NCBI GenBank assembly: GCA_964642305.1 | Contig: CAZXOE010000002.1 | Location: forward strand, 50,300-114,299 | Length of the DNA: 64,000 nt | Direction: 5' to 3' | Origin: an uncultured Candidatus Saccharibacteria bacterium | Lineage (GTDB): Bacteria > Patescibacteriota > Minisyncoccia > Phycocordibacterales > UBA1550 | Part shown: piece by piece, positions 22,270 to 63,724 of the stretch | Layout of the letters: each line of letters begins with the position of its first letter | Position numbering within the stretch: position 1 is the first letter of the stretch | The notes under the pieces: generated by a model | What the model saw: only the letters and a program-made list of their open reading frames with translations | Told to the model about the DNA's origin: nothing | Databases searched by the model: none | Position numbers and translations under genes: made by a program

Positions 22270-23005
22270 AAAGGGGTCAGGTACCTTTGATTTGTGATAT
22301 AGTCTTAGTATATAATACAAACATGCCACGACTACCACGCGTTGATGTTGGAGGAGAAATTTATCACGTCATTAATCGTGCAAATGCACGGTTGCCAATT
22401 TTTTTTAAAGAAGACGACTATAAACTTTTTGAGACAATTATTGAGGAAGCGCAGATTAAATTTGGTATGAGGATTCTCGCGTATTGTTTTATGCCAAATC
22501 ATTTTCATCTTGTATTACATCCAAACAGTGACGGTGATTTGCAGAAGTTTATGCAATGGCTCACGCTTACTCATACTCAACGCTGGCACACAAAAAATGG
22601 AACGACAGGAACTGGACATCTATATCAAGGACGATACAAGTCTTTTCTTGTCCAAGGCGACAGGCACTTACTTACTATTATTCGCTATGTAGAGAGAAAT
22701 CCACTGCGGGCAAAATTGGTCAAGAAAATTGAAAACTGGAATTTCTCAAGCCTCGCTAGGCGACTTTCTGGCAATCCTAAAAAGAATAAATTACTTGAAA
22801 AGTGGCCGATTGAAATGCCAAAGAATTATCTAGCCTTTGTGAACGAACCTATGAATAAAAATGAAGAAGATGTAATCAGGTACTCTGTTAATAGAAGCAA
22901 GCCTTTTGGATCGGACACATGGAGCAGTAGAATGATCGATAAGCACGGGCTAGAGGCGACGATGCGCAACAGGGGAAGACAAATCAAAGGTACCTGACCC
23001 CTTTG
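22270..23005 (+). mobile_element. IS200-like/RAYT unit bounded by 20-bp inverted repeats (AAAGGGGTCAGGTACCTTTG / CAAAGGTACCTGACCCCTTTG)
   Basis: The IRs at 22270-22289 and 22985-23005 are perfect reverse complements. The right IR overlaps the stop codon. Confidence 0.55.
22323..22997 (+). CDS. IS200/IS605-family Y1 (HUH) transposase, REP-associated tyrosine transposase-like
   Basis: HUH motif MPNHFHLVL and a catalytic Tyr region RYVERNPLRA. The TATATAATACAAAC promoter is fused to the ATG. Confidence 0.7.
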   Translation: MPRLPRVDVGGEIYHVINRANARLPIFFKEDDYKLFETIIEEAQIKFGMRILAYCFMPNHFHLVLHPNSDGDLQKFMQWLTLTHTQRWHTKNGTTGTGHLYQGRYKSFLVQGDRHLLTIIRYVERNPLRAKLVKKIENWNFSSLARRLSGNPKKNKLLEKWPIEMPKNYLAFVNEPMNKNEEDVIRYSVNRSKPFGSDTWSSRMIDKHGLEATMRNRGRQIKGT

Positions 23006-23116: not shown

Positions 23117-23497
23117 ATGAAAGAGAAAACACCAAAAACAAAAGAGAAAGAAAGTGGCATCGACATGCTTGCTCGTATGATGAAGCATGGTTTTGACCGC
23201 GTGGACAAACGGTTTGATGGTGTGGACAAACGGTTTGATGGTGTAGACAAACGTCTAGATGGTGTAGACAAACGTCTAGATGGTGTAGACAAGAGACTCA
23301 ACTCACTGGAGGCTGGGCAAAGCTCTATTGTTCAAGAAGTACTCGCTCTTAATCGTGCCCAAGAAGAAACCAATCGTCGCCTGACCTCAATAGAAAGGAA
23401 GCAGACAGGCATTCTTTCGAGCCTAGACGAGACGGTTACACGAAGTGAGTTTCGGGTGCTTGCAAACAAGGTCGCGGTTTTAGAAAAGAAGCGTTAA
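23117..23497 (+). CDS. small coiled-coil protein with five tandem heptad repeats (DGVDKRF/L)
   Basis: 5 x 21-bp tandem repeats (gatggtgt[ga]gacaaacg...) at 23193-23297. The rest is predicted alpha-helical and charged. Confidence 0.5.
   Translation: MKEKTPKTKEKESGIDMLARMMKHGFDRVDKRFDGVDKRFDGVDKRLDGVDKRLDGVDKRLNSLEAGQSSIVQEVLALNRAQEETNRRLTSIERKQTGILSSLDETVTRSEFRVLANKVAVLEKKR
23193..23297 (+). repeat. 5 x 21-bp tandem repeat (in-frame heptads)
   Basis: Direct reading of the near-identical 21-mers. Confidence 0.8.
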
Positions 23498-23616
23498 GCT
23501 AGTTATCCACACTTTCACACTGTATAGCTTGCGTTGCGCGGGGCTCTTCTGTGGTACAATAAACATATTATAAATGTTTTTAGCGCGCCCGCTGTCCGTT
23601 ATTTATTAAATTACAA

Positions 23617-26600
23617 ATGAAAAATATTTTCCATCGTTCCGCCGAGTTTATTGCAAAACACAAACACCATCACCATATCGCGCTCGCTACGCTCGCGCTC
23701 GTTATAGCAGGCGCAGGAGTGTACACATATCGGCACGAAATAGCGCAGGCGGCAACATATACTTTTACACAGTCCTCGTGGGCAGGCGGAGCTACTGCGA
23801 ACACCGCAGTGCACCCGACCAATCAATCAAGCTGGACGCAATATTCCGCAAATTCGGCAGATATAACTGCTGATGCAAGTAGTGTGAGACTAAACACGGT
23901 AAGCTACTCCTTTACAGATGACGGCACTAGCACTACCACCAGCCCAATAGCCACAGGTGGCGGTTTTTCAAGTGGTGCAAATTCCTCAACGGCGATTTCC
24001 GGTTCAGGCACAGGCGCGAGCGTGGGCTTGATGTTGAATGAATATGGCTGGGCAGTGGGAAATAGTGGAACCATACGAAAAACTGCCAACAGCGGGGAAA
24101 CTTGGTCTACCCAAACAAGTGGGACAACCAATGGTCTTAATAACCTCTACTTCATCGACTCCAATATCGGCTGGGCGGTGGGAGGTAGCGGAGTCATACG
24201 AAAAACCATAGACGGTGGTACAAACTGGCCTACCCAAACAAGCAGCGGGATAACCGCAAATGGTGTCCACTTCATCGACGCCAATACCGGCTGGGTGGTG
24301 GGAGGTGACGGAACTAATGGAATTATACGAAAAACCATCAACGGCGGAACAAGCTGGTCTACCCAACTAACGATAGGAGGCTATATGGATTTTTTCGATG
24401 TTCATTTCATTGACGCTAATACCGGATGGGCAGTGGGAAATCAAGCAACGATAAAAAAAACTATAGACGGTGGTACAACTTGGTCTACCCAAACAAGTGC
24501 GAGAAGTGCAGAACTTTACGCCGTCCACTTCATCGATACCAACACCGGCTGGGTGGTGGGAGCTTACGGAATACAAAAAACCATAGACGGTGGTACAACT
24601 TGGTCTACCCAAACAAGCGAGACACAATGGCTTCGCGGTGTCCACTTCATCGACGCCAATATCGGCTGGGCGGTGGGAGGTAGCGGAGTCATACGAAAAA
24701 CCATAGACGGTGGTACAAACTGGCCTACCCAAACAAGCGGGACAACCCAACAACTTAGAGGCGTCCACTTCACTGACGCCAATACCGGCTGGGCGGTAGG
24801 AGCAGCCGGCACCATACTCAAAACCACCAACGGCGGTACTACATGGACAGCTCAAACAAGCGGGACGACTCAGAATCTTAATAACCTCTACTTCGTATCT
24901 TATTATTCCAACCCCGGCACCTTCACTTCTGCAGATATTGACCTCGGGGCGAATGTTATCTTTAGTGGAAAAACATTAGATTGGACGGAAAGTTTGAACG
25001 GTGGCGATATTCAAATTCAAATGAGAAGCGCAACTACGCAAGGAGGGCTTTCTGGAGCGACATGGTACGGTCCGACTGGTACAGGGGATTATTATACAGC
25101 AAGTGGCGGTAGTAGTATAAACACTGTTCACAATGGTCATAGGTGGATTCAATACCGAGCAACTTTAACTACTCCTAATACAGCCCTTACCCCCACACTT
25201 GATTCTGTAACGATAAATTACACGCAATACGCAAGCGCGGGCGATTTAACTTCTTCTAAATATGATGTCGGGTCAGATACTCTTATTTCTAGACTTAGCT
25301 GGGTTGCGTCTACTACAACCACAGAAACTGTCGCTTTCCAGGTGCAGTCCTCACCGGACAACTCCACATGGACAGGTTGGTGCGGATTTAGCGAGACAGG
25401 CCCAACGTGCGATGGGTCAAACTATTTCACAGACGCGCACAATGGCGTAGCACTTGGCACTAGTCACCCGCTTCGTTCAGGCACTGGAGCAGGTGCTGAC
25501 AGATATTTCCAATATAAAGTATTCCTTGTTTCAGGCGGAGCTGTGACGCCAGAGCTAACATCTGTTACGGTGCAATATGTGATTAACGCGCCACCGGATG
25601 TTCAAAATGTCACTGCTGTGCAAAATGCAGATGGGACTGTGACGGTGAATTTTGATATGCGTGATACCGACACCAATGATGCTGGTGCCGCCACTCCAGG
25701 AAAAGTTATTTCTACACTGCAGTACAATAATGCGGCATGTGGTGCTGGACCTTCATGGGCTGATGCGGCCGCGGTTACTGGAGCTGTCGGCGCGAATACA
25801 ACCATTACTGCCACGTATCCAACAAGCGCGAGCTCCACTATTACATGGACTCCTTCTACCGACTGGTCGGATAAGTACTGCGCAACACAGCAAGTTCGTA
25901 TAAAATTGAATGACTCTGAGGGTGCAAATAATCTTGGGTATAGCACCGCGGCATCGTTTTTGCTCGATACCACAGCGCCTGTTGTAGCGTCAACCGGCGG
26001 TTTCCTTGTGGATTCCTCTGTAGGAGGAGCTGGACTTGCGGGCATAAAACTTACCGCAACAGATGACAGCACTATGCAGTATAGACTTTGCAATAATTCA
26101 GACTTTACAGCAGACGGATTGAACTCGGGTGCTGGTGCCTGCACAGAATGGAGCTCTGCTTCTGCGTCCGTTGACCTTACTACATCAGCAAATTCGTGGA
26201 ACACAGCTCTAGGCGCGGATGGAACAGAAACTGTATATATGCAAGTGCGTGATTTGTATGGCAACGTGACATCTAGGACAGCTAGCGCGCCAACGGTACC
26301 ACCATCGTTTATTGCAACTGACACAACAAACCTCAACAGCGACACGTACAGAGAGTTTTTGAGCTGGGGAAAAGCTTCATCAACTACATTTGGATCATAT
26401 AAGGTCTATTACAACACCACAGGCTCTGGTGCTAGCTATTCATTGCTTGGCACAGTTACAGATGTAAACCAAAATTACTATACACACACGATAACAACAG
26501 CAACAAGCTCAACACACTACTACAAGATGGTTACTGTTAGCGCGAACGGCGATATTTCAGAATTTACATCCGTAAAATCAGATGTCCCTGACGGCTCGGG

Positions 26601-29025
26601 AAGCACTGATGTTACGGCGCCGTATATACCATACGCCGGCATCGCGGTGTCGTCTGTGAGAAACACGTCTGCAAACATAACATTTAGCACGTATACAGAT
26701 GTTTCTTTGGCAGAAGGCGAGCTCGCAACCTCTACTGTGCGATACGCGAGCTATACTGGGAATGCGCCAACATCCTGCCCAACCACGTCTTCAACAAACT
26801 CAAACACATATGTTGTGAACCACAGCGTATATCTTACAGATCTAACTCCTTCTACCAGCTATGTGTTCTGTGTTCTTGCAAAAGATATTTCTGGGAATGT
26901 GAGTACGGCATCATATGTGGCGGAGTCTGGCGGAACATTTACAACCATAGGTGGCCCAAGAATAACAGGAGTGACACAAAGAGAAATTACAGACACATCC
27001 GCAACTATTTTCTGGAACACAGACACAAGCTCTGATTCAAAGGTGTATTTTTCAACTAGCGCGGGTGGCGTAAACGGAGCGACCCCAGTTACGGGAGCCG
27101 TTGTTACCACGTCTGGAACAAACGAAAATGGCACATTTTATCAGCATCAAATAGGGCTCACTGGTTTGACTCCCGGCCTAACATATTATTACAAGGTTTC
27201 CTCAACAGACGCTCTAGACTCAGAGTTGGTAGCAATAGATGACAATACTGGGCAATATTACAGTTTTGTAACCTTGAAGGACACAACCCCACCAATCATT
27301 ATGGGTACTTCTACGCCAGTGCTAGCGCCAACTGCCGCTGTTATTGTGTGGCAGACGGACGAAATGGCAGACTCGCAAGTATTTTATGATACCGTGTCGC
27401 ACGGAACAGACACATCCCTTTATCCAAAATACACAGCGACACAAAGCTACCCTACAAGCGTAAAGTCTATTTACCATGTAATGACACTGTCCTCAGACAC
27501 AGCAAATTCTGGAAGTGGTGGTGGAACGAACGCTCTTATAAAGGAGACACAGTATTACTATGTTGTGAAATCAACCGATTCAGCTGGCAACTCTTCTGTT
27601 TCGACGGGGACATTTACGACACCTGCAGACGGTAACGTTACTATTACTGTAGTGAGAGTAACCCAAGCATCAGAGGGTACACCACCAGACACAGCAGGCC
27701 CTGTTTTGTCTAGTGTGAAGGTCAGTGATATTACTCCGTTTGGAGCTACAGTTTCGTTTGATACGAATGAGGATGCTGTAAGTTTTGTTGAATACGGCAA
27801 AAGCGCGTCATTTGGCGATAGCGCTGGTAGCAAGACGTGGAGTAAAACACACTCCATAAAACTTCGCGGGTTAACTCTTGGCACTGAGTACTATATAAAA
27901 GTTTCTGCTGTAGATAAAGCAGGGAACACGGGTACAGGAGGTGAACAAACATTCAAAACATCGTTCCTTTCGGAGGATTTGAAAGACCTCACGAAGATAG
28001 AAAATATTGAGCAATTCCAAAAGGAGATTGAGGCAACGATTGAGTCAATCCTCCCGTCGCTCGTGCCTCCATTTATCACAAAGCCAGTCATTAGTGATAT
28101 CACAGAAGGTAGTGCAAAGATTTCATTTAGAACAAACATAAAAGCATTTCCAGTGGTTGTGTTTGCAGAGGATGGCGTATACGATGAAACAAAAGAAAAT
28201 CCGTATACAGGAGAGATGTCAGACACAACAGAAAAAGCTACGAGCCACGAGCTCGCCCTCACTGGTCTCAAGGGTAACACAAAGTATCATATTCAGGCGC
28301 GAGGGTTCTCTCTACCAAAGGTAATTGGCAAGTCAGCAGACGTGACATTTATCACAAAGGCGTCAAAGATTGCGGGTTCTATCGTGGAGCGCAAAAAAGA
28401 TTCGTTTACAGTGGTATGGACCACGGAACAGCCAACGTCATCAATTGTTGAGTTTAAAGATTTGAAGCGTGGCATAACAGGTCGTAAGACAGATGATGCA
28501 AAAAAGAAATCTCACTCTATGAAGATTGAAAACCTTCCTTCTGGAACTGCGTATGAAGTAAATCTTTCTGGAGTGACGGAGCAGGGGAATGTCGCAGAGG
28601 CTGGGTCGCCAATTTCTGTAACAACATCAACAGATACCACACCGCCAGTTATTTCAGGATTTAAAGTGGACAATGCTCTTGTTCCAGGCAGAACAGACAG
28701 AATCCAGACTATTGTGTCGTGGGTTACTGATGAGCCTTCAGACTCTACAGTTTACTATCAAGAAGGCGCTGGTACTCCGGGCGATACAGAGGAGCTTGCA
28801 AACAAAAATGAAGTGTTAGATTCGTATATTACGAACCACAGCGTTATTCTTCCAAGCTTGAAGCCAGGCACTATTTACCGATTAAAGGTTACATCAAGCG
28901 ATGACTCTGGAAACCTTGGTTCATTTGGCCCTCGCACAGTCATTACTCCAAAGCAGACTGAGTCCATCACCGATATCATTTTCAAGAACTTTGAAGACAG
29001 CTTCAAGTTCCTCCAGAAGATATAA
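23617..29025 (+). CDS. giant (1802 aa) membrane-anchored cell-surface protein: N-terminal TM, ~8 BNR/Ycf48-like beta-propeller blades, multiple FN3-like domains
   Basis: Repeated GW(A/V)VG..G.I.KT.DGGT.W..QTSGTT..L..VHF.D.N.GW blades. Later recurring ...YYYKVS..D..GN / TEYYIKVSAVDKAGN FN3-like beta-sandwich signatures. Confidence 0.65.
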   Translation: MKNIFHRSAEFIAKHKHHHHIALATLALVIAGAGVYTYRHEIAQAATYTFTQSSWAGGATANTAVHPTNQSSWTQYSANSADITADASSVRLNTVSYSFTDDGTSTTTSPIATGGGFSSGANSSTAISGSGTGASVGLMLNEYGWAVGNSGTIRKTANSGETWSTQTSGTTNGLNNLYFIDSNIGWAVGGSGVIRKTIDGGTNWPTQTSSGITANGVHFIDANTGWVVGGDGTNGIIRKTINGGTSWSTQLTIGGYMDFFDVHFIDANTGWAVGNQATIKKTIDGGTTWSTQTSARSAELYAVHFIDTNTGWVVGAYGIQKTIDGGTTWSTQTSETQWLRGVHFIDANIGWAVGGSGVIRKTIDGGTNWPTQTSGTTQQLRGVHFTDANTGWAVGAAGTILKTTNGGTTWTAQTSGTTQNLNNLYFVSYYSNPGTFTSADIDLGANVIFSGKTLDWTESLNGGDIQIQMRSATTQGGLSGATWYGPTGTGDYYTASGGSSINTVHNGHRWIQYRATLTTPNTALTPTLDSVTINYTQYASAGDLTSSKYDVGSDTLISRLSWVASTTTTETVAFQVQSSPDNSTWTGWCGFSETGPTCDGSNYFTDAHNGVALGTSHPLRSGTGAGADRYFQYKVFLVSGGAVTPELTSVTVQYVINAPPDVQNVTAVQNADGTVTVNFDMRDTDTNDAGAATPGKVISTLQYNNAACGAGPSWADAAAVTGAVGANTTITATYPTSASSTITWTPSTDWSDKYCATQQVRIKLNDSEGANNLGYSTAASFLLDTTAPVVASTGGFLVDSSVGGAGLAGIKLTATDDSTMQYRLCNNSDFTADGLNSGAGACTEWSSASASVDLTTSANSWNTALGADGTETVYMQVRDLYGNVTSRTASAPTVPPSFIATDTTNLNSDTYREFLSWGKASSTTFGSYKVYYNTTGSGASYSLLGTVTDVNQNYYTHTITTATSSTHYYKMVTVSANGDISEFTSVKSDVPDGSGSTDVTAPYIPYAGIAVSSVRNTSANITFSTYTDVSLAEGELATSTVRYASYTGNAPTSCPTTSSTNSNTYVVNHSVYLTDLTPSTSYVFCVLAKDISGNVSTASYVAESGGTFTTIGGPRITGVTQREITDTSATIFWNTDTSSDSKVYFSTSAGGVNGATPVTGAVVTTSGTNENGTFYQHQIGLTGLTPGLTYYYKVSSTDALDSELVAIDDNTGQYYSFVTLKDTTPPIIMGTSTPVLAPTAAVIVWQTDEMADSQVFYDTVSHGTDTSLYPKYTATQSYPTSVKSIYHVMTLSSDTANSGSGGGTNALIKETQYYYVVKSTDSAGNSSVSTGTFTTPADGNVTITVVRVTQASEGTPPDTAGPVLSSVKVSDITPFGATVSFDTNEDAVSFVEYGKSASFGDSAGSKTWSKTHSIKLRGLTLGTEYYIKVSAVDKAGNTGTGGEQTFKTSFLSEDLKDLTKIENIEQFQKEIEATIESILPSLVPPFITKPVISDITEGSAKISFRTNIKAFPVVVFAEDGVYDETKENPYTGEMSDTTEKATSHELALTGLKGNTKYHIQARGFSLPKVIGKSADVTFITKASKIAGSIVERKKDSFTVVWTTEQPTSSIVEFKDLKRGITGRKTDDAKKKSHSMKIENLPSGTAYEVNLSGVTEQGNVAEAGSPISVTTSTDTTPPVISGFKVDNALVPGRTDRIQTIVSWVTDEPSDSTVYYQEGAGTPGDTEELANKNEVLDSYITNHSVILPSLKPGTIYRLKVTSSDDSGNLGSFGPRTVITPKQTESITDIIFKNFEDSFKFLQKI
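24040..24870 (+). repeat. near-identical ~120-135-bp nucleotide repeats encoding the propeller blades
   Basis: Strings such as ccatagacggtggtacaacttggtctacccaaacaagc recur several times; this is the source of many spurious antisense ORFs. Confidence 0.7.
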
Positions 29026-29933: not shown

Positions 29934-32900
29934 ATGACAGAATCTGAAAAGAAACTCTCTGATATTGCAAAACGCGAGGAGGAAACTCTTGCGAGCTGGC
30001 AGTCTGCTGATATTTTTGAAAAGACGCTTGAGCAAACTAAAAATGGTGAAAGTTTTGTTTTCTATGACGGGCCTCCATTCGCGACTGGCCTTCCGCACTA
30101 CGGACACATACTTGCAAGCACAATCAAGGATGCGATACCTCGCTATCAAACCATGCGTGGGCGATACGTTCGCCGTGTATGGGGTTGGGACTGCCACGGT
30201 CTTCCAATTGAAAACCTAATAGAAAAGGAGCTTGGGCTTGAACACAAAAAAGATATTGAGGAATATGGTGTAGAAAAATTTAACGAGGCGTCACGCGCTT
30301 CGGTGTATCGCTATGATGCAGAATGGAAAAAGTTTATTCCGCGAATCGGGCGATTCGTTGATATGGATCACTCATATAGCACGATGGATGCAGGCTACAC
30401 CGAAAGCGTATGGTGGGCTTTTAAGGAGCTTTTTAAAAAAGGTCTCGTGTATCAGGGTTTTAAGCCGATGCATATTTGTCCGAGGTGCGAGACAACACTT
30501 TCAAACAATGAAGTAACGAGTAACTATAAAGACATAACCGATATTTCAGTCACGGCAAAATTTGAGCTTGTTAAAGAGCCGGACACATACATTCTCGCGT
30601 GGACTACGACACCTTGGACTCTCCCAGGAAATGTGGCACTCGCAGTTTCTCCAGACTCTGAGTATGTGAAAGTAGCAATAGGGGACGAGAAATATATTTT
30701 GGCTGGAGAACGCGCTGAGGCAGCTCTTTCTGGGAAAGAGTACACAATAGTTTCGCGAATGAAAGGTTCTGAACTTGTTGGCGCAGAGTACAAACCAATT
30801 TTTGATTATTACTCAGAACAGGGAACGCTGGACAATCGCGAAAATGGATGGAAAGTGTACGGAGCAGAATTTGTAACAATGGAGAGCGGTACTGGAGTGG
30901 TGCACATCGCGCCAGCCTTTGGCGAGGACGATATGAATCTCGGCACAAAAGAAAATTTGCCGTTTATACAACATGTTGCAATGGATGGCACAATGAAAAA
31001 AGAAGTTCGGGATTTTACCGGTGTTTCTGTGAAGCCAAAGTCTGACGAAAAGGATGGACATCAAGCGACGGATATTTTAATTATTAAACACCTTGCAGGC
31101 GCTGGCGCGCTTTTTTCAAAAGAAAAAATTATTCACGCGTACCCGCATTGTTGGCGTTGCGAGACACCGCTTTTAAACTACGCGGCTCAATCGTGGTTTG
31201 TGAAAGTACCTGAACTAAAAGATAAACTTCTTGCAGAGAACGCAAAAACATCTTGGGTGCCAAAAAATATGCGCGACGGGCGTTTTGGAAAGTGGCTGGA
31301 AGGCGCGCGCGATTGGGCAATCTCGCGCTCGCGATATTGGGGAGCGCCAATTCCAGTGTGGGAATGTGAAAAATGTGAGGCGAGGGAAGTGTTTGGCTCT
31401 CGTGCGGAGCTTTCTCTGCGTGTGAAAAAATCCGGCAACAAATATATTGTAATGCGTCACGGCGAGGCAGAAAGCAATGTTAAGAGAGTTGTGAGTTCAA
31501 AAACAGACGGAAGCTCAGCGTACGGACTTACAGCAAACGGGCGCGCATTAGTAGAGGAGACTGGCAAGAAACTAAAAGAAAAAGGAATTGACATTATCAT
31601 CACGTCGCCTTTTGTGCGCACAAAGGAGACTGCGGAGATAGTCGCCGGAGCTATTGGTTTTGATACGCGAAAGATTATTGTTGATGAGCGCATCAAAGAA
31701 ATTGACACAGGGGTTTTTGACGGAAGATCAATTGACGAGTATCGCGGACACTTCGTTTCGATGGCGGAAAAATTCACAAAGAGACCCGAGGGAGGGGAGA
31801 ATTTGCTTGATGTGAAGCGTCGAGCCATGGCTCTTCTTGAAGATCTTGAAAAAGAGTACGCAGGCAAGACTATTCTTATTGTCACGCACGAATATCCTAT
31901 CTGGATGCTTATGACAGGAATAGAAGGAGCGAGCATTACGCGCGGAATAGAGATAAAAGACGGCAAAGAAGATTTTGTAGAGACCGGAGAAGTAAAAGAA
32001 ATACAGTACAGCCCATTCCCACACAATGCGGATTTTGAATTTGACCTGCACTTGCCGTACATAGACACTGTGGGTTTGTTGTGTAGTTGCGGTGGTAAAA
32101 TGAAGCGTGTCCCGTATGTTTTTGACTGCTGGTTTGAGTCTGGCTCAATGCCATACGCGCAGTTCCATTATCCGTTTGAAAACAAGGAACTTTTTGAAAA
32201 GAATTTTCCTGCGGATTTTATTGCTGAGGGTGTGGATCAAACACGTGGGTGGTTTTACTCCATGATGGTTCTTTCCGTTGCGCTCTTTGGTAAGGCTCCG
32301 TTTAAAAACGTAATAGTGAACGGAATGACGCTCGCGGAGGATGGGCAAAAGATGTCGAAGAGTCGCAAAAATTATCCCGACCCAGTGGATGTGATCAACA
32401 AATATGGCGCGGACGCTGTGCGTTATTATATGCTGTCGTCTCCGATAGTGCATGCGGAAGATCTTGCGTTTTCAGAAATGGGTGTAGATGAAGTTGTTAA
32501 AAAAAATATCGCTCGCCTTCTCAATGTGCTTTCCTTCTACAAGATGTATGGAGGAAGCGCTGCGCCTACCAAAGGGGAGAGTGAAAACCCTCTCGATCAA
32601 TGGATTCTCGCGCGTCTCGCAGAGCTTACGACAGAAATGACTAACGCTTTTGATAATTATGAACTTGATCGCGTGGTAAAACCTGTTGGACTTTTTATTG
32701 ATGATTTATCCACATGGTATATTCGTCGTTCACGAGAACGCTTTAAGTCAGATGAGACTGTGGATCGCGCGCATGCTATCGAAACGACACGCGTGGTACT
32801 TTTGGAGCTCTCAAAACTTATTGCGCCTGTGATGCCGTTTCTCGCGGAGCATATATATCAAAATGTCGGAGGTAACAAGGAAAGCGTGCATCTTGAAACT

Positions 32901-33425
32901 TGGTCGAAATCAAAAGAAGTAAACTCAGAAATTCTTGCAAGAATGGAAGAAGTTCGTCGAGTCGTCTCTGTTGCTCTTGAGGATCGCGCGAACGCCGGGT
33001 TGAAAGTTAGGCAACCACTTTCTTCGGTAACAATTCCATCTGTACTCAAAATTAATGTTTCTGATGAGGCGATCATCACCGATGAAATTAATGTGAAGCG
33101 TGTAATACGATCAGATGCTCATGATGCAAAAATTGAGATTGATAGAGAGATTACTCCAGAACTCAAAAAAGAAGGGCAGTTTCGTGATGTACTACGCACT
33201 GTACAAGAGTTACGCAAATCTGAGAATCTTAATCCTGCTGATAAAGTAGTGTTAAATGTGCATACTGATGATGATGGTAAAGAATTTCTGGAGTTATTTA
33301 AAGATGATTTAAAGAAGACCGCACTTTTGCTAGATATTCGTTTTACTAGTGATTTATTTGCGCAAGGGGGGAGCGCAAGCATTTCTTTTGATAAATTTTC
33401 TTTTGATTTTACTTTAGATAAATAA
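29934..33425 (+). CDS. ileS: isoleucyl-tRNA synthetase with an inserted histidine-phosphatase (PGAM-like) domain
   Basis: HIGH (PHYGH) and KMSKS present, plus the editing domain (WTTTPWTLPGN). A ~220-aa insert between VWECEKCE and HLPYID contains RHGEAESN...SPFVRTKETAEI. Confidence 0.9.
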   Translation: MTESEKKLSDIAKREEETLASWQSADIFEKTLEQTKNGESFVFYDGPPFATGLPHYGHILASTIKDAIPRYQTMRGRYVRRVWGWDCHGLPIENLIEKELGLEHKKDIEEYGVEKFNEASRASVYRYDAEWKKFIPRIGRFVDMDHSYSTMDAGYTESVWWAFKELFKKGLVYQGFKPMHICPRCETTLSNNEVTSNYKDITDISVTAKFELVKEPDTYILAWTTTPWTLPGNVALAVSPDSEYVKVAIGDEKYILAGERAEAALSGKEYTIVSRMKGSELVGAEYKPIFDYYSEQGTLDNRENGWKVYGAEFVTMESGTGVVHIAPAFGEDDMNLGTKENLPFIQHVAMDGTMKKEVRDFTGVSVKPKSDEKDGHQATDILIIKHLAGAGALFSKEKIIHAYPHCWRCETPLLNYAAQSWFVKVPELKDKLLAENAKTSWVPKNMRDGRFGKWLEGARDWAISRSRYWGAPIPVWECEKCEAREVFGSRAELSLRVKKSGNKYIVMRHGEAESNVKRVVSSKTDGSSAYGLTANGRALVEETGKKLKEKGIDIIITSPFVRTKETAEIVAGAIGFDTRKIIVDERIKEIDTGVFDGRSIDEYRGHFVSMAEKFTKRPEGGENLLDVKRRAMALLEDLEKEYAGKTILIVTHEYPIWMLMTGIEGASITRGIEIKDGKEDFVETGEVKEIQYSPFPHNADFEFDLHLPYIDTVGLLCSCGGKMKRVPYVFDCWFESGSMPYAQFHYPFENKELFEKNFPADFIAEGVDQTRGWFYSMMVLSVALFGKAPFKNVIVNGMTLAEDGQKMSKSRKNYPDPVDVINKYGADAVRYYMLSSPIVHAEDLAFSEMGVDEVVKKNIARLLNVLSFYKMYGGSAAPTKGESENPLDQWILARLAELTTEMTNAFDNYELDRVVKPVGLFIDDLSTWYIRRSRERFKSDETVDRAHAIETTRVVLLELSKLIAPVMPFLAEHIYQNVGGNKESVHLETWSKSKEVNSEILARMEEVRRVVSVALEDRANAGLKVRQPLSSVTIPSVLKINVSDEAIITDEINVKRVIRSDAHDAKIEIDREITPELKKEGQFRDVLRTVQELRKSENLNPADKVVLNVHTDDDGKEFLELFKDDLKKTALLLDIRFTSDLFAQGGSASISFDKFSFDFTLDK

Positions 33426-49030: not shown

Positions 49031-49180
49031 CTAATGGACACTGGCAATCATTGACTTTTCTCAAATGTCCGTTATATAATGGACAAACATTACGAAGTTC
49101 GAGATAAAGGACATATTCTAAAAAAAGCACGAAATAAAGGACACCTTAAAGACACACAATGGACTACAATAAGGACATCA
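49031..49180 (+). promoter_or_regulatory. promoter (TTGACT-18-TATAAT) with a periodic array of AAGGACA / ATGGACA repeats
   Basis: GGACA cores at 49036, 49081, 49109, 49139 and 49173, spaced ~28-45 bp, spanning the -10 box, the leader and the first codons. Confidence 0.45.
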
Positions 49181-50031
49181 AAGACAATAGGCTCGTGAGC
49201 CATACACCGACCAACGGAGCGCTTGTTTTTGGTGCTACTATTTCAAAAAAGTGTGAGCGCCTTGCTACCGCAATTTACCTCGTTACCAATTTTCTATCGG
49301 ACACAGAGCCGATGAAGCCCCGCCTTCGCTCTCTCTCGCTAGAGCTTGTCCGAGACGCGTCTCTCGTGAAAAACGGGAGTCAGGCAATGGAGGCAAATGT
49401 CCTTGAAGCGCTCCGCGCGAATATTCTTGAAACACTTTCTTTGTTTGAACTCGCATTTATTGCAGGCTTAGTATCCGAGATGAACTTCACTATTTTGAAG
49501 AGGGAATACGTTTCGCTTAGGGACATGATTGAGGTGAAAAAAGCATCTCGCGAGTCGCATACAGACAGCATCCTTGGTGACAACTTTTTCAGCGTATCGA
49601 ACCCAGAGCCCCTAAGGTCAGACCTTAAGAATTTGAGCCCAAGGTCGGACCTTTATGCATCCTCAGCAACCCGCACCCCCGCCTCCCCTAAAGGACATTC
49701 TATAGGACAAACAGTTATCACAATGTCCGATAGAAACACAAAAGGACAATCCGTTTTAGTGCATCCGTCTTTGCGAGGAGGTACTCCGACGCGGCAATCC
49801 AGCACCCCATCATCCACTCCCCGCGCAATCACAGATGTAGCAAAAGAATCTCGCCGGTCACGCATTTTAAAACTTGTAAAAGACAATCGTGAAGTTACCA
49901 TAAAGGACATTGCAAATCATTTTGCGGACTTATCAGAAAAGACAATTCAGCGTGAACTTATGTCCTTTGTAGAACGCGGTGTCCTTAAGAAATTTGGAGA
50001 ACGTCGCTGGTCACGTTATTCATTAGCATAG
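49159..50031 (+). CDS. hypothetical protein with a C-terminal winged-helix (DeoR-like) DNA-binding domain
   Basis: C-terminus RILKLVKDNREVTIKDIANHFADLSEKTIQREL. Low-complexity S/T/P-rich middle. Confidence 0.4.
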   Translation: MDYNKDIKDNRLVSHTPTNGALVFGATISKKCERLATAIYLVTNFLSDTEPMKPRLRSLSLELVRDASLVKNGSQAMEANVLEALRANILETLSLFELAFIAGLVSEMNFTILKREYVSLRDMIEVKKASRESHTDSILGDNFFSVSNPEPLRSDLKNLSPRSDLYASSATRTPASPKGHSIGQTVITMSDRNTKGQSVLVHPSLRGGTPTRQSSTPSSTPRAITDVAKESRRSRILKLVKDNREVTIKDIANHFADLSEKTIQRELMSFVERGVLKKFGERRWSRYSLA

Positions 50032-50040
50032 CGGATATAA

Positions 50041-50107
50041 TAAGGCCCGGCCTCGGATACCAGAGCATAACCAAGGCCCGGCCTCGGGTACTCTCGAGGC
50101 CGGGCCT
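50041..50107. repeat. REP-like GC-rich palindromic doublet (AAGGCCCGGCCTCG...)
   Basis: aaggcccggcctcgg ... aaggcccggcctcgggtactctcgaggccgggcctt. Related to the palindromes flanking RAYT #2. Confidence 0.6.
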
Positions 50108-50869
50108 TATTATCCACACCTTACTCTCATCACCACTTGCTTGTTTCTTGCCCCATTTTCTGCTATTATATACCCGTGTGGAGAGGTTGGTAAGTATCGT
50201 TAAATGTGTCTGCATTCCGCATCCACTTTCAACTTCGAATCAGCTGATTCGTGGCTCGGCCATGAAAACTTTCAAGCGACTAGTTTGGAAGTTATCCACA
50301 CATATACTTTGCAGGTTAATCTTGCACCGTATATAATGTATGTAAGTTCAGTGCGTAGATTAATTTCTGCGTTACTGAATTTAGGCGTAGTGAATGTGTC
50401 CGCACATTTGCGCGTCATTAAAATAGAAACTCCCGGCTTACGATAGATTGCAAGCAAGGGGAGAGTCCATTGAAAACTAGGTCCGTTGCGAAAAGATATT
50501 CGCTGTATCCAAGGACTGCCATTGGGTACCCTCAAGGGCAGTCCTTGGATATCTTCTCGCACCGGATCTTGCATAGAAAACATATCTCACAATTAGGTAT
50601 GTTCTCATTGTTTGCTCGCATCTGCATTCTTGTCAGTTGCGAATCAGCTGATTCGTGTCTTGGACATAAAATTGTCCAGGTCAGTTGTCAGATGTATTTG
50701 CAAAGCAAATTTCTATGGCCTCGATCCGTGTGGTCGAAGCACTACCGCATGACCGACAAAACGACAGAATAAAAAAAGTTCACTTAATTAAAGTGTGCAC
50801 GAAAACCTTCCTCAACTGCAAAGACGAAGAGGGAGCACACTGTGCGATTAGAAACATATCAATTTATTT

Positions 50870-53800
50870 ATGACTACAATTATTTCATCAAAGTCTGCAA
50901 AAATTACTGCAGGTTTGGTAGGACTTATTGCTGGTGTTGCAATGTTTGCAATCACAGCTCAAGCCGCTACATTTACAACAAACCTAAAGCAAGGCAGCAC
51001 AGGTGCTGATGTAAAGAACCTTCAAATGGTTTTGAACATGAGCGCTGACACACAGGTTTCAGTATCAGGTGCAGGTTCACCTGGTAACGAAACTTCATAC
51101 TTCGGTCCTGCAACAAAGGCCGCAGTTGTAAAGTTTCAGAATAAGTACGCATCAGAGATTCTTGCGCCAGTTGGTTTGACCAGCGGTACAGGATACGTTG
51201 GTGCGTCAACACGCGCAAAGTTGAACACAATGGAAGGAGGTTCAACAACAAGCATGGTTCCTGGTTGTACTTCAACAGTTGGCTTTAGCCCAACAACAGG
51301 AGCTTCATGTGCTTCAGGAGTAGTGACAACAACTACTTTAGTTCCTGGTTGTACTTCAACAGTTGGCTTTAGCCCAACAACAGGAGCATCATGTGCAACA
51401 GGTGCTGTAACAGCATCAGGTCCAGTATCAGCATCACTTGCAAACGACAACCCTGCAGCATCTGCAGTTATTGCCGGACAAGCAACTGCTGATCTTCTCC
51501 ATGTTGCTTTCACAGGTAACGGTACAATCACCAACGTTAAGTTGATGCGTACTGGTATCTCAGCAAACACAACTCTTTCAAACGTTTACCTATACAATGG
51601 TAACACTCGTTTGTCTGACGCTGCTTCGGTGAACAACACAGATAGCACAATCAGTTTCAACGGTCTTAACCTTTCAGTTAATGGCTCACTTACACTTTCA
51701 GTGAAGGCTGACATCGCAGCAGGTACTGCAGGTCAGATTGTTGGTGTAAATCTTATTGGTTACACAACATCAGGTAGCGGAGAGACAACTGCAAATATTT
51801 CAGGTAACTACATGAATATTGCATCAGCACCATCAACAATGACTGCTGCTACTGCAGCTGCAAACACTGTAGGTTCTACCGCAACAGTAAACGCTGGAAC
51901 AACCGGCTTTACATTCTGGTCATCTCCAGTAACTGTAACAAACCGCCTCGGTCTTCTTACAGGAGCTAACTTCAGATACGTTGGATCAGCTCCCGCAGAT
52001 GCACTTGAGAATATTCGCCTTTACGTGAACGGTGTTGCAGCAGGCGCTACAGGTGTTTTGAACACATCAACGAACCTTGTTTCGTTTGATTTTGCTTCAA
52101 GCCCAGTAACATTGAACACCGGTGCTTCAACAATTGATGTTCGCGCTGACGTTGTAAAGGGCTCAAATCGTACAATTACGATTTCTCTTGCAAACGCTGC
52201 CGACCTCATGATCCGTGATTCACAGCTTGGTGTAAACGTTGCAGTAACAAACAACAGTTCAACAGGAACTACTGTTACTATTAACCCAGGTTCAGTTACA
52301 GCATCCGTAGACTCAACATACAATGCAACAACAGTGGCAGGCGGTACAACCGGCGCTATTGTAGGGCAGTACACATTGAAGGCTTACGGTGAAGATGTAA
52401 AGGTAGACACACTTAAGGTTACTTTTGCTACAACTTCAGCTATAACAACACTTGACAACGTTGCGCTTTACGCAAACGGTGTACAGGTAGGTTCATCAGC
52501 AAACTTCCTCGGAACAGCTGCTCTAACCTTCACTTTGGGCTCATCTCTTATCCTTCCAGCCAATACAACTGTAACTCTTACAGTTAAGGCTGATATGATA
52601 GACAGTACAGGGTCTGCATACACATCAGGTACAGTAGCTACAGTACTTGGAGGTGTTGCAAGCAATGCGCAAGGACAGAGCTCATTTGAAACTCTTTCAG
52701 TAGCAAGTACTGCTATCACAGGCAACACTCTTACTGTAGGAGCTAGCGCAGGTACGTTTGTTCGAACCTCAGGTTTCGTAACATCAACATCCTCACCTAA
52801 TACACAGAATGTAAAGATTGGATCGTTTACGCTCCAAGCTGGATCAACTGAAAGTATTAGTGTAACAAGTATTGGTGTTAAGCCTACATTAGGTGGATAC
52901 AACGGTGGTACAGCAAACGCTATTACCAACTACAGTACACTTACTGTTAAGAATGGTTCAACAGTTCTTGGAACTCCAGTTGGTAACCCAGCTGCAGCAA
53001 CATCAACGTTCTCATTCAGTGGTATCAACATTCCTATTAACGGATCAGTTACATTTGATGTATACGCCGACATTGGAGGCGCAGCATCATCAACAGCAAA
53101 TCCTACTATCACTGCAGACATGGCGGTAACATACCGAGGTGCTGTAAGCAACACAACAACAACCTCAGCAGCTGCTGGCGTTGCTATTGCTTCAGCTTCT
53201 GCTACTTTGGCGGCTCCAACATTGGTGTCATCATCAGCAGTTGCGCAGTATGTAGTAGGTGGTTCATCATTCGGTATTGCAACCTTTAAGTTGTCAACAG
53301 CCGCACAGGGAACATCAGCTACAGTTAACAAGCTTGCGTTCGCAACTACAGGACAGGATGCTATTGTAAGCATTACTGTAGGTGGCGTTACACAGGCGGT
53401 AACAGGATCAGGTGCCTCAGCAACAACAACAATCTCAGGTCTTAACATCAATGTTCCTTACACAGGTGTTGATGTGCCTGTAACCGTTAAGTTCTCTGGT
53501 TTCCTCGGTTCAACAACAGGTGGTTCACTTTCATCTGGTATTGCTTCAACACTCGTAACACTTAGTTACGTAGAAGGAACATCAGGTACAGGTGCAGCTA
53601 TCACTTCTTACTCACCTGTGTCTTCAAACACAATGATGTTGTACGCCTCAAAGCCTACGGTTTCAGGGCCTTCATCATCATCAGGTATCCTTTCATCAGG
53701 TGTACAGAAGATCGGAGAGTTCACAGTTGCGGCTGACACCAACGGCAAGATTGCTGTTGCGACAACCTCAATTACGTTCTCAACATCAACAACTGGAACA

Positions 53801-54124: not shown

Positions 54125-54318
54125 TTTTACTAGGGACTAAGTAACAACGAAAAGAGTCTTAGTCTCAAATTAGGTCAATGCGTCGCTTCAGAGAAATTAT
54201 CTCGAACGAGCTAAACCCAAAACGAAACTAACCTCCCTGCCCGCCACTGCCTGTCGCTCCTGAATTAGCAAATTCACGTCTTGGACGCAAATGAGCAGTT
54301 AGGCGATGGCAGGCGGGA

Positions 54319-54357
54319 ATTCAGAAAAAGACCCCTTTCTCTTACGAGAAAGGGGTC
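54319..54357 (+). terminator. intrinsic terminator
   Basis: gacccctttctc-ttac-gagaaaggggtc with flanking A and T runs. Confidence 0.6.
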
Positions 54358-54375
54358 TTTTTCGTGCTCAAATCC

Positions 54376-54411
54376 CCAAGCTCCCCAAGGCCCGGCCTAT
54401 GTACATAGGCC
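54376..54411. repeat. 36-bp perfect palindrome CCAAGGCCCGGCCTATGTACATAGGCCGGGCCTTGG (REP-like, left of RAYT #2)
   Basis: Read directly; identical to 55109-55144. Confidence 0.85.
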
Positions 54412-54434
54412 GGGCCTTGGTATATAATACAAGC

Positions 54435-55088: not shown

Positions 55089-55108
55089 CCCCGAGGACTA
55101 CCAAACCA

Positions 55109-55144
55109 CCAAGGCCCGGCCTATGTACATAGGCCGGGCCTTGG
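55109..55144. repeat. 36-bp perfect palindrome, identical second copy (right of RAYT #2)
   Basis: Read directly. Confidence 0.85.
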
Positions 55145-55209
55145 TGGTAAAGTTATCCACAATAAAGTTAGGTGTTTCGGGGGTGGATTGGTAGAATTAG
55201 AGGAATTAT

Positions 55210-59325: not shown

Positions 59326-59326
59326 T

Positions 59327-59370
59327 CCCCATAGGTCCGACCTCTGTCTACAGAGGTCGGACCTATGGGG
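59327..59370. repeat. 44-bp perfect palindrome (CCCCATAGGTCCGACCTCTGT|AGACAGAGGTCGGACCTATGGGG), REP-like / terminator
   Basis: Read directly. The half-site is related to CATAGGCCGGGCC of the RAYT palindromes. Confidence 0.7.
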
Positions 59371-59477
59371 AGACCCGTGGGGAAAAGTTATCCACAATTA
59401 GGATAAGGACGAGCTAGGGGATTGGATGTGCGGTTGGTATAATACAAGTAATATTAGCAAAATAATTTTGGATATTT

Positions 59478-61958: not shown

Positions 61959-62597
61959 ATGGACACTCTCGGAAAATTATTTGGAAGCCAGGCGCGTGTA
62001 AAGATTTTGCGCTTGTTTCTACTAAACTCACAGGATGCATACGATGTGCCAATGGTTGCGGAAAAGAGCAAAGTTTCAGTGGCAGAGGCGAGGCGCGAAC
62101 TCACACTACTCAAGGCTGCTGGGGTAATATCCAATAAGTCTTTCACAAAAGAAATATTTTCAAAAAAGAAAGATGCAAAACCGAAGAAAAAAAGAGTTCA
62201 AGGTTTTCAGCTTAAAACAACCTTCCCGCTACTGGCATCTCTTAAAGGTTTGATTGTTTCTGAGACCCCTCTGAACAGAGATGAAATAGCAAGGCGATTT
62301 AAAGGCGTTGGAAAAATCAAATTTCTAGCCATTTCCGGCATTTTTATTGACGAGCCTGAGGCGCGCGTGGACGTGCTAATAGTTGGCGACGACCTCAAAA
62401 AACGCTCTATTGAGAACGTTTTACGCACAATTGAGGCAGAAATAGGTCATGAACTCTCCTACGGAGCCCTAGAAACCTCTGAATTCCTTTACCGCGTGAG
62501 TGTGTACGATAAATTTGTGCGAGATGTGCTTGATGGCCGTCACGATACTGTCATAGACCGAATAGGGGCGGAGGAGGTAAAGCCAGTCATATTGTAG
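61959..62597 (+). CDS. hypothetical protein, N-terminal winged-helix-like
   Basis: RVKILRLFLLNSQDAYDVPMVAEKSKVSVAEARRELTLL is HTH-like. The rest is unassigned. Confidence 0.35.
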   Translation: MDTLGKLFGSQARVKILRLFLLNSQDAYDVPMVAEKSKVSVAEARRELTLLKAAGVISNKSFTKEIFSKKKDAKPKKKRVQGFQLKTTFPLLASLKGLIVSETPLNRDEIARRFKGVGKIKFLAISGIFIDEPEARVDVLIVGDDLKKRSIENVLRTIEAEIGHELSYGALETSEFLYRVSVYDKFVRDVLDGRHDTVIDRIGAEEVKPVIL

Positions 62598-62759
62598 AGT
62601 TATCCACAGCCCCCTTTCTTTCGTTATATCTATAATGGTATAATAAAAGGGTAGGAATCAAGCTACTCTGCTCGCCGGCGCAAACCGCAGGCGCTGTGCA
62701 AGTGGAATTGATGATACGAGATAATTTATTAGTTTTAGTTTTAAAAATATAAAAAAGAT

Positions 62760-63591: not shown

Positions 63592-63619
63592 TTGACATAG
63601 CTTTTCTTTTGTATATAAT
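63592..63619 (+). promoter_or_regulatory. consensus sigma70-type promoter (TTGACA-16-TATAAT)
   Basis: ttgaca at 63592-63597 and tataat at 63614-63619. Confidence 0.55.
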
Positions 63620-63625
63620 GGCTGG

Positions 63626-63724
63626 ATTGTTGCATATGAGTATCGGAACCAAATATACCCCCGGCGGGACTAGATAGGAACCATTACGGCTTCTATTTTA
63701 CCCGCGTTATCGCGGGTTTTTTTA
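63626..63724 (+). ncRNA. candidate small RNA / leader (promoter-to-terminator unit ~100 nt)
   Basis: Begins ~7 nt after the -10 box and ends at acccgcg-ttat-cgcgggt+TTTTTTT. Contains only a 12-codon ORF (MSIGTKYTPGGTR). Confidence 0.3.

What the first reader, a model, noticed from the sequence alone, without database searches (positions are those of the whole stretch)
23501..23511. Recurrent AGTTATCCACA motif (perfect DnaA-box 9-mer plus two bases) upstream of -10 boxes of membrane and surface-protein genes
AGTTATCCACA occurs at 23501, 50290, 55151, 59386 and 62598; TTATCCACA also occurs at 50109. All lie in intergenic DNA ~20-50 nt upstream of a TATAAT/TACAAT box. The downstream genes are: the giant surface protein (23617), the PG-binding surface protein (50870), the TM protein plus secreted hydrolase (55210/55858), a Thr-rich membrane protein (59478) and the TM-helix-repeat membrane protein (62760). 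A specific 11-mer occurring five times by chance in 64 kb is very unlikely. This looks like a regulator binding site (DnaA itself or another factor) defining an envelope regulon.
Basis: partly seen in the sequence, partly recalled or inferred. Interest (0 to 1): 0.55.

Follow-up and report, generated by a model that had tools for sequence, protein, structure and literature searches.

The report
DnaA-box promoter element of envelope genes
A perfect DnaA-box sequence sits alone, at a fixed position and orientation, upstream of promoters of membrane and surface-protein genes in this ultra-small (CPR/Patescibacteria) bacterium and across that whole group. This points to an undescribed envelope regulon, probably read by the replication initiator DnaA.

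Summary
AGTTATCCACA occurs 5 times (0.07 expected). All five copies are intergenic, on the + strand, and 27-40 nt upstream of extended -10 promoters (TGGTAnAAT) of membrane or surface-protein genes. A sixth site (TATTATCCACA, 50108) has the same layout.

The window comes from a Parcubacteria/Yonathbacteria-like CPR genome. The motif is neither a dispersed repeat nor an origin: only the 9-11 bases are shared between sites, and each site is a single box.

A scan of 185,579 species genomes for box plus -10 returned about half CPR genomes, from many classes. In an unbiased set of 72 CPR orthologue loci, 58 carry nTATCCACA on the coding strand. The spacing to the -10 is 25-28 nt or 36 nt, one helical turn apart.

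Box promoters drive genes with N-terminal TM or signal segments in 25/33 cases, against 13/46 for box-less promoters (p=4e-5).

Best reading: a phase-locked site for a monomeric regulator that defines a conserved envelope regulon. DnaA is the most likely binder (identical consensus, DnaA-like flanks and variants). This is unproven, and an adjacent conserved wHTH protein is a rival. I found no prior report.

The parts
23501..23511 (+). Box 1, AGTTATCCACA. It starts 3 nt after the stop codon of gene 23117-23497.
23552..23560 (+). Extended -10 TGGTACAAT, 40 nt after box 1. Promoter of the 1802-aa surface protein gene 23617-29025 (fn3, Big_3, BNR-like domains; N-terminal hydrophobic anchor).
50108..50118 (+). 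Box 2a, TATTATCCACA (9-mer at 50110-50118). It abuts a perfect 14-bp-arm palindrome (50073-50108). An extended -10-like TGCTATTAT lies 42 nt downstream (50161-50169).
50290..50300 (+). Box 2b, AGTTATCCACA. TATAAT at 50332-50337 lies 31 nt downstream, with TTTGCA as a possible -35.
50345..50869 (+). Structured non-coding transcript or leader that would be driven by the box 2b promoter. It precedes the PG_binding_1 surface protein gene 50870-54124.
   Evidence: fold z = -8.4; no Rfam match
55151..55161 (+). Box 3, AGTTATCCACA, 2 nt after a perfect 22-bp-arm palindrome (55105-55148).
55189..55197 (+). Extended -10 TGGTAGAAT, 27 nt after box 3. Promoter of the TM protein gene 55210-55851 and the secreted beta-helix/LTD protein gene 55858-59325. 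Orthologues of 55210 in three other CPR genomes also carry the box.
59386..59396 (+). Box 4, AGTTATCCACA, 14 nt after a perfect 22-bp-arm palindrome (59326-59371).
59435..59443 (+). Extended -10 TGGTATAAT, 38 nt after box 4. Promoter of the Thr-rich TM protein gene 59478-59984.
62598..62608 (+). Box 5, AGTTATCCACA. It starts directly after the stop codon of the wHTH protein gene 61959-62597.
62636..62644 (+). Extended -10 TGGTATAAT, 27 nt after box 5. Promoter of gene 62760-63452 (230 aa, 5-6 TM helices, PF05552 mechanosensitive-channel TM-helix family). This is the most widely conserved box-bearing gene.
61959..62597 (+). Conserved winged-helix (ArsR/MarR-like) protein gene. It is the upstream neighbour of box 5 in about 75 of 80 CPR loci. 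It is the rival candidate for the box-binding protein, not a shown part of the system.

Best explanation
Each AGTTATCCACA is a single, high-affinity DnaA-box-type operator placed on one face of the DNA helix. It ends at about -42 or about -52 relative to the transcription start (my assignment from the -10 position). It always has the same orientation, and it lies upstream of extended -10 promoters (TGnTAnAAT) that lack a -35 element.

These promoters drive genes for membrane, secreted and giant surface proteins.

The most likely reader is a monomer of the replication initiator DnaA, acting through its C-terminal HTH domain. Bound at this position it would contact RNA polymerase and, most probably, activate these otherwise weak promoters. 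Envelope and surface-protein synthesis would then follow the amount of free DnaA, that is, the replication state of the cell.

Shown here: the sites are real and non-random; they are single, intergenic, oriented and phase-locked; they are conserved across Patescibacteria upstream of orthologous genes; and they are linked to envelope genes.

Inferred, not shown: that DnaA is the binder, and that the effect is activation.
For: 1. Statistics and placement in the window.

2. Only the 9-11 bases are shared between sites, so they are not copies of a repeat.

57 are named CPR genomes from many classes. 11 are Veillonella, where the site precedes dnaA. CPR spacings cluster at 19-23, 25-29 and 36-39 nt.

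4. The CPR loci hold 10 extra 11-mers in 403 kb, against about 0.2 expected. These are intergenic and co-oriented with the next gene.

5. Unbiased test: of 72 orthologue loci of gene 62760 from metagenomes, 58 have ATCCACA upstream on the coding strand, and 56 of those 58 are preceded by T. The spacing to TGn is 25-28 nt in 25 loci (15 at 26 nt) or 36 nt in 10 loci, one helical turn apart. TATCCACA is the most frequent 8-mer in upstream regions (45 co-oriented, 4 inverted).

6. Homologues of three of the window's target genes carry the box in other CPR genomes.

7. Envelope enrichment: 35/50 against 110/320 (p=3e-6). With a promoter-matched control: 25/33 against 13/46 (p=3.7e-5).

8. Box promoters have -35 matches at chance level (2.49 against 2.98, p=0.03).

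9. Evidence for DnaA specifically:
- The sequence is the universal DnaA box.
- The 5' A-G flank recurs in genuine dnaA/oriC box arrays of Veillonella and others, and in E. coli oriC R4 (my own knowledge).
- Veillonella dnaA has the same box-26 nt-TGGTAnAAT layout.
- Natural variants at the correct distance change position 3 (TTGTCCACA, twice) and position 5 (TATACACA, TATTCACA), which are tolerant positions in known DnaA boxes. Position 7 also changes (TATCCCCA, once at the correct distance).
- The neighbouring wHTH protein has a poorly conserved recognition helix across the same genomes in which the box is invariant.
Against: No DnaA protein or binding data for this organism were available, and no CPR dnaA/oriC locus could be fetched for comparison.

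In 113 promoter-type sites there is no second box at any offset. In E. coli, by contrast, DnaA binding in vivo at nearly all targets needs pairs of boxes 2-3 bp apart (PMC11317965).

Known DnaA regulons concern nucleotide synthesis, replication, repair and cell-cycle genes, not envelope proteins (PMC11317965, PMC8203912).

The first T of the 9-mer is only 57% conserved across CPR.

A conserved wHTH protein gene sits right next to the best-conserved site.

The direction of regulation is inferred only from position and from the weak -35 elements.

The -10 elements and transcription start sites are predicted, not mapped.

The envelope test uses a crude hydrophobicity rule, and the loci are phylogenetically related.
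Confidence: 0.55

Rival explanations
1. The cis-element and regulon are as described, but the box is read by a CPR-specific transcription factor rather than DnaA. The obvious candidate is the conserved 212-aa winged-helix protein encoded at 61959-62597, directly upstream of the best-conserved box.
Against: An unrelated factor would have to share, by coincidence, the exact DnaA consensus plus its typical flank, and would have to compete with DnaA for the site. ArsR/MarR-type proteins normally bind palindromes as dimers, whereas this site is asymmetric and single. The presumed recognition helix (residues 41-55) is poorly conserved at its exposed positions across 66 homologues, while the box is invariant in the same loci. 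No box lies upstream of the wHTH protein's own gene.
Confidence: 0.25
2. The box is a core-promoter element read by RNA polymerase itself: an UP-element-like site for the alpha C-terminal domain, or a site for a sigma-factor domain. It would not be a regulator site.
For: The two preferred positions (box ending near -42 and near -52) are one helical turn apart and close to the proximal and distal UP subsites of E. coli (UP positions from my own knowledge). Box promoters lack a -35 element.
Against: The sequence is not A/T-rich. Only a functional subset of promoters has it. The rplJ promoter, the perfect-consensus promoter upstream of the 23S rRNA gene (assumed to serve it) and other housekeeping promoters in the window lack it. 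A third spacing class (19-23 nt) exists.
Confidence: 0.07
3. The boxes are DnaA titration or reservoir sites (datA-like, but dispersed). They would buffer free DnaA and have no direct role in transcription.
For: They are perfect high-affinity boxes present far above chance. Chromosomal titration of DnaA is an established idea in E. coli (PMC12371093). A small genome with tens of such sites would bind a sizeable share of DnaA.
Against: Titration alone explains none of the following: the fixed orientation, the 10-nt phasing to the -10, the conservation at orthologous promoters, or the link with envelope genes. The sites are not clustered. Titration could still be a secondary effect of the sites.
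Confidence: 0.07
4. The boxes are parts of REP-like mobile or repeated elements, spread by the IS200/RAYT-like Y1 transposases encoded in the window.
For: Two Y1_Tnp genes are present (22287-22997, 54306-55088). A RAYT-like gene is the upstream neighbour of 7 of 54 boxes in CPR loci, and in L106 it is flanked by inverted boxes. Three window boxes follow perfect GC-rich palindromes.
Against: Nothing beyond the 9-11 bases is shared between sites, and the palindromes differ or are absent. The element is conserved in position across very distant genomes and is phase-locked to promoters, which REPs are not. The RAYT adjacency is largely conserved gene order among related Parcubacteria.
Confidence: 0.03

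Closest known systems
DnaA as a transcription factor at DnaA-box promoters (E. coli dnaA and nrdAB; B. subtilis DnaA regulon; Caulobacter DnaA regulon including ftsZ, podJ, gcrA)
   Same: The sequence is the consensus DnaA box with its typical flank, placed next to a promoter. The box-26 nt-extended -10 layout also occurs upstream of dnaA in Veillonella. DnaA is known to act as both activator and repressor (PMC8203912).
   Different: The boxes here are single, not paired or clustered (compare PMC11317965). Their position is phase-locked upstream of promoters that lack a -35 element. The targets are membrane, pilin-like and surface proteins rather than nucleotide, replication or cell-cycle genes. 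The arrangement is conserved across a whole superphylum. Binding by DnaA was not shown.
Monomeric, orientation-dependent activators such as MarA/SoxS/Rob, and class I/II activator sites in general
   Same: The site is asymmetric and single, with fixed orientation and helical-phase-dependent distances from the -10. The core promoter is weak.
   Different: The sequence and the presumed protein are unrelated to AraC-family factors. No activator-polymerase contact is known for this case.
Chromosomal DnaA titration sites (datA, dispersed high-affinity boxes) and B. subtilis DnaA-box clusters
   Same: High-affinity boxes outside the origin, in excess over chance.
   Different: These are isolated single boxes, not clusters, and they are tied to promoters and to one functional class of genes.
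oriC
   Same: The same 9-mer. The 11-mer equals E. coli oriC box R4 with its flank (my own knowledge).
   Different: There is no cluster of boxes in the window, no neighbouring dnaA or dnaN, and the GC skew keeps one sign across the window.

Membership tests
DnaA box (binding site of DnaA domain IV) | Match to TTATCCACA or the relaxed TTWTNCACA | tested here: met
   There are six perfect intergenic 9-mers in the window. Across CPR orthologue loci the conserved core is nTATCCACA, with T at the first position in 57%.
DnaA box (binding site of DnaA domain IV) | The pattern of tolerated variation and the flanks resemble those of genuine boxes | tested here: inconclusive
   Six natural variants change positions 3, 5 and 7. 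The A-G / A-C flank is shared with Veillonella and other dnaA/oriC arrays. The sample is small.
DnaA box (binding site of DnaA domain IV) | Physically bound by DnaA | not testable with these tools
   This needs EMSA, DAP-seq or ChIP.
DnaA-regulated promoter, as defined in E. coli in vivo | A pair of boxes 2-3 bp apart, or a cluster (PMC11317965) | tested here: not met
   There is no second box at any offset from -30 to +30 in 113 promoter-type sites. Mean matches are 2.0-2.8 of 9, which is background.
DnaA regulon (known content) | Targets in nucleotide synthesis, replication, repair or cell-cycle functions | tested here: not met
   The targets are TM, secreted, pilin-like and giant surface proteins. 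The thyA, dut, folA, glyA, tmk, recA and ssb genes in the window have no box.
oriC / DnaA-box cluster / datA | Several boxes within a few hundred bp | tested here: not met
   Arrays of five or more relaxed boxes in 500 nt were found only in non-CPR loci, most of which carry dnaA. Two CPR loci reach four relaxed boxes, and none was found in the window.
REP/REPIN elements linked to RAYT transposases | A conserved palindromic unit repeated as a whole, typically flanking the RAYT gene | tested here: not met
   The alignment of the six sites shares only the box. Palindromes are present at 3 of 6 sites and differ in sequence.
Activator site of class I/II type | Fixed orientation and helical phase relative to the core promoter | tested here: met
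   The spacing modes are 26 and 36 nt. Orientation is 45 co-oriented against 4 inverted. The -35 is weak. Actual activation was not tested.
UP element | An A/T-rich sequence at -40 to -60 of strong promoters | tested here: not met
   The position is similar, but the sequence is not A/T-rich and is absent from the rplJ promoter and from the perfect-consensus promoter upstream of the 23S rRNA gene.

The most novel reading that the evidence does not exclude
In Patescibacteria, which have very few regulators, the replication initiator DnaA has been recruited as the master regulator of the cell-surface programme: pilin-like proteins, giant adhesin-like proteins and small membrane proteins. It would act through single, phase-locked, high-affinity boxes. 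Envelope and host-attachment functions would then be tied directly to replication status. The tens of boxes per roughly 1-Mb genome would at the same time act as a sink that titrates DnaA. Because the targets are membrane-inserted proteins, the boxes could also hold DnaA close to the membrane.
Probability: 0.35. Interest if true: 0.85.

Novelty: new variant of a known kind. Interest (0 to 1): 0.7.

Why it matters
Gene regulation in CPR/Patescibacteria is essentially uncharted. This huge and mostly uncultivated group lives attached to other microbes and depends on its surface proteins.

A single short element, conserved across the group and marking envelope genes, would be a first predicted global regulon for it. 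It gives a concrete hypothesis that can be tested in the few cultivable, genetically tractable Saccharibacteria.

It would also suggest how minimal cells couple growth of the envelope to chromosome replication.

In practice, the box plus the extended -10 can be used to predict surface and host-interaction genes among the many CPR proteins with no known function.

Tried and rejected
- Dispersed repeat or MITE: rejected. The alignment of the six sites shares only the box.
- Replication origin: rejected. There is no box cluster and no dnaA, and the GC skew keeps one sign across the window.
- The box as a -35 element of an alternative sigma factor: rejected. There is no information content in the 20 nt after the box, and the -10 lies 29-39 nt away.
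- A second, degenerate box nearby: none found.
- Known RNA families in the window and the 50-kb gap: none in the window at gathering thresholds, and only chance-level miRNA hits in 49950-50900.
- Retrieving a CPR dnaA/oriC locus to compare box flavour: not possible.
- AFDB fold search for the wHTH protein: the library was unavailable.
- Literature searches for this motif in CPR, Patescibacteria, Saccharibacteria or TM7x found nothing relevant. The TM7x transcriptome preprint contains no promoter or motif analysis.
- The flanks of the 62760-family loci hold few other box promoters. The element therefore marks a subset of genes and is not a general promoter feature.

Full report
**Observation.** AGTTATCCACA occurs five times in the window, at exactly the reported coordinates and always on the + strand. 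Shuffles predict 0.07 copies, and none of 100 shuffles reaches five. The 9-mer TTATCCACA occurs eight times against 0.47 expected. The sixth intergenic copy starts at 50110, not 50109, within TATTATCCACA. Two more copies lie inside genes (32706 in IleRS; 56994 on the minus strand). The window is 88.3% coding, yet all six promoter-type copies are intergenic and point towards the next + strand gene.

**Context.** The gene content includes many aminoacyl-tRNA synthetases, recA, ftsK and rplJL, together with giant surface proteins that have few Pfam matches. A 23S rRNA gene with a LAGLIDADG gene and a group I intron follows just past the window's right end. All of this marks a CPR/Patescibacteria genome. 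The closest homologues of one window protein are named Parcubacteria GW2011_GWA1_44_13 and Candidatus Yonathbacteria. Intergenic promoters here are of the extended -10 type, TGGTAnAAT.

**Anatomy of the six sites.**

| Box | Start | Distance from box end to TGn | Notes |
|---|---|---|---|
| 3 | 55151 | 27 nt | follows a perfect palindrome |
| 5 | 62598 | 27 nt | starts directly after a stop codon |
| 2b | 50290 | about 28 nt equivalent | no TG; 31 nt to TATAAT |
| 4 | 59386 | 38 nt | follows a perfect palindrome |
| 1 | 23501 | 40 nt | starts 3 nt after a stop codon |
| 2a | 50108 | 42 nt | abuts a perfect palindrome |

The three palindromes are GC-rich with arms of 14-22 bp. An alignment of the six sites shares nothing beyond the box, so they are not copies of a repeat. 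The downstream genes are:
- an 1802-aa fn3/Big_3 protein;
- a PG_binding_1 protein of 1084 aa, which lies 530 nt beyond its promoter, after a strongly structured non-coding stretch;
- a 213-aa TM protein followed by a secreted beta-helix protein;
- a Thr-rich TM protein;
- a 230-aa multi-TM protein of the PF05552 family.

**Distribution.** I scanned one genome for each of 185,579 species for AGTTATCCACA-N15-45-TGGTANAAT.
- 57 loci are named CPR genomes from many classes: Saccharibacteria, Paceibacteria, and Woese-, Nealson-, Yonath-, Staskawicz-, Harrison-, Magasanik-, Uhr-, Jorgensen- and Moranbacteria.
- 11 loci are unnamed 'bacterium' bins.
- 11 loci are Veillonella.
- 40 are other genomes.

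From my own knowledge, CPR genomes make up only a few percent of species and about 1% of bases in such a collection, so this is a large enrichment. The Veillonella hits and several proteobacterial hits lie just upstream of dnaA, within arrays of boxes. They are genuine DnaA-box regions.

In the CPR loci the spacing is not uniform: 14 sites fall at 19-23 nt, 25 at 25-29 nt and 12 at 36-39 nt. Beyond the seeded copies, the CPR loci hold 10 more 11-mers in 403 kb, against about 0.2 expected. These lie between genes and point towards the next gene.

**Unbiased conservation test.** Ten of the 57 downstream genes were orthologues of window gene 62760. I therefore fetched 80 loci from metagenomes using the protein alone.
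- Of 72 loci with at least 180 nt of upstream sequence, 58 have ATCCACA on the coding strand, 90-200 nt before the start codon. 56 of these 58 are preceded by T.
- The next base upstream is T in 33, C in 15, G in 6 and A in 4 loci. A G precedes the 9-mer in 28 of 58.
- The opposite strand shows only chance-level matches.
- The spacing to TGn is 25-28 nt in 25 loci (15 at exactly 26 nt) or 36 nt in 10 loci. The two modes are one helical turn apart.
- TATCCACA is the most frequent 8-mer in upstream regions of these loci: 45 co-oriented against 4 inverted.
- The few variants found at the correct distance are TTGTCCACA (twice), TATACACA, TATTCACA and TATCCCCA; a second TATCCCCA has no recognisable extended -10 after it.
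- Homologues of window genes 55210 and 50870 also carry the box in other CPR genomes.

**Regulon content.** In the CPR loci, 35 of 50 genes with a co-oriented box within 250 nt have an N-terminal hydrophobic segment, against 110 of 320 other genes (p=3e-6). I also compared only genes that have their own intergenic TGnTAnAAT promoter, leaving out the 62760 family. The figures are then 25/33 with a box against 13/46 without (odds ratio 7.9, p=3.7e-5). The targets include type IV pilin-like proteins, giant surface proteins and small TM proteins. There are exceptions, such as tuf in L100. Housekeeping promoters in the window lack the box: rplJ, the promoters at 11546 and 23050, and the perfect-consensus promoter upstream of the 23S rRNA gene. 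Box promoters have -35 matches at chance level (mean 2.49 against 2.98, p=0.03).

**Who binds: the case for DnaA.**
- The sequence is the universal DnaA consensus.
- The A-G (or A-C) flank is common in genuine dnaA/oriC arrays and in E. coli oriC box R4 (my own knowledge).
- Veillonella dnaA has the same box-26 nt-extended -10 layout.
- Two of the three variable positions (3 and 5) are known tolerant positions of DnaA boxes.

**Who binds: the case against DnaA.**
- The sites are strictly single. None of 113 sites has a second box at any offset. E. coli DnaA, by contrast, needs pairs of boxes in vivo (PMC11317965).
- Known DnaA regulons do not contain envelope genes (PMC8203912, PMC11317965).
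- No CPR dnaA locus could be examined.

**Other readings.** An UP-like core element, pure DnaA titration, and REP-like elements tied to the two RAYT-like genes each fit the data less well. The reasons are given under the rival explanations.

**Mechanism proposed.** A monomeric protein, most likely DnaA, binds a single high-affinity box on one face of the helix, ending at about -42 or -52. From there it contacts RNA polymerase at extended -10 promoters that have no -35 element, probably activating them. The existence, placement and conservation of the site, and its link to envelope genes, are shown. The identity of the binder and the sign of regulation are inferred.

**Novelty.** Full-text searches found no description of this element in CPR. 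DnaA acting as a transcription factor is known. New here would be the single, phase-locked architecture, the envelope targets and the conservation across the whole superphylum.

**Limits.**
- The loci are phylogenetically related, so the counts are not independent events.
- Gene calls and TM calls are crude (longest-ORF calling and a Kyte-Doolittle window).
- Promoters and transcription starts are predicted, not mapped.

Noticed in passing
window 50345-50870 (within the gene-free stretch 50032-50869): The 526 nt between the box 2b promoter and gene 50870 fold far better than shuffles (z = -8.4), with no Rfam match at E<=1. The stretch contains AGAAACUCCCGGCUUAC and GGGGAGAGUCC, which resemble the two P4 strands of RNase P RNA but occur in the wrong order. 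It also contains a repeated palindrome, GAATCAGCTGATTCGTG, at 50237 and 50641. It may be an undescribed RNA or a long leader.
   Followed up: partly
window 62760-63452 and L001 11308-16487; L127, L137, L147, L149, L151, L156, L169, L173, L182, L187: The 230-aa PF05552 membrane protein gene lies directly upstream of the 23S rRNA gene in the window's contig and in at least 10 of 20 unrelated CPR loci checked. The gene order wHTH protein, membrane protein, 23S rRNA is conserved.
   Followed up: partly
5' untranslated regions of the 62760 family, e.g. L186, L196, L176, L169; window 62645-62759: Just after the -10, many orthologues carry conserved strings: (A)GGTCGAA (AGGTCGAA is in 19 of 329 upstream regions) or TACCCCTTTTAAGAGTGGTAA. 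This may be a leader RNA motif or a second operator. No Rfam family matched.
   Followed up: no
window 22287-22997 and 54306-55088; L009, L082, L085, L088, L106: There are two IS200/RAYT-like Y1 transposase genes. Homologues of the second are the upstream neighbour of 7 of 54 boxes in CPR loci, and in L106 the gene is flanked by two inverted boxes. This is mostly explained by conserved gene order, but the link is unexplained.
   Followed up: partly
window 50073-50108, 55105-55148, 59326-59371: These are perfect GC-rich palindromes with 14-22 bp arms and no T-tract, directly 5' of three boxes. Two share AAGGCCCGGCC, and a further direct copy lies at 50042-50056. They may be terminators without a U-tract or REP-like hairpins.
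   Followed up: partly
window 29934-33425: The isoleucyl-tRNA synthetase-like gene (1163 aa) has a histidine phosphatase (His_Phos_1) domain inserted at residues 505-671, between parts of the synthetase core.
   Followed up: no
L001 11308-17035 (just right of the window): The 23S rRNA gene is interrupted by a LAGLIDADG endonuclease gene and a group I intron, and is followed by a tRNA and 5S rRNA. No 16S rRNA gene is adjacent.
   Followed up: no
window 63592-63619: A perfect consensus sigma-70 promoter (TTGACA-16-TATAAT) lies between gene 62760 and the 23S rRNA gene. It is followed at 63700-63717 by a terminator-like hairpin. This is probably the rRNA promoter, and it has no box.
   Followed up: no
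L016 5150-5570 (Veillonella) and ten other Veillonella loci: The dnaA upstream region carries AGTTATCCACA-26 nt-TGGTACAAT followed by an array of (A/G)GTTATnCACA boxes. The 26-nt spacing equals the main CPR mode.
   Followed up: yes
window 49159-50031; L082 1164-1976; L106 6507-7310; L108: A 290-aa protein with a C-terminal DeoR-like HTH is followed by a box in the window and in two other CPR loci. A protein with a similar C-terminal HTH is itself downstream of a box in L108.
   Followed up: no
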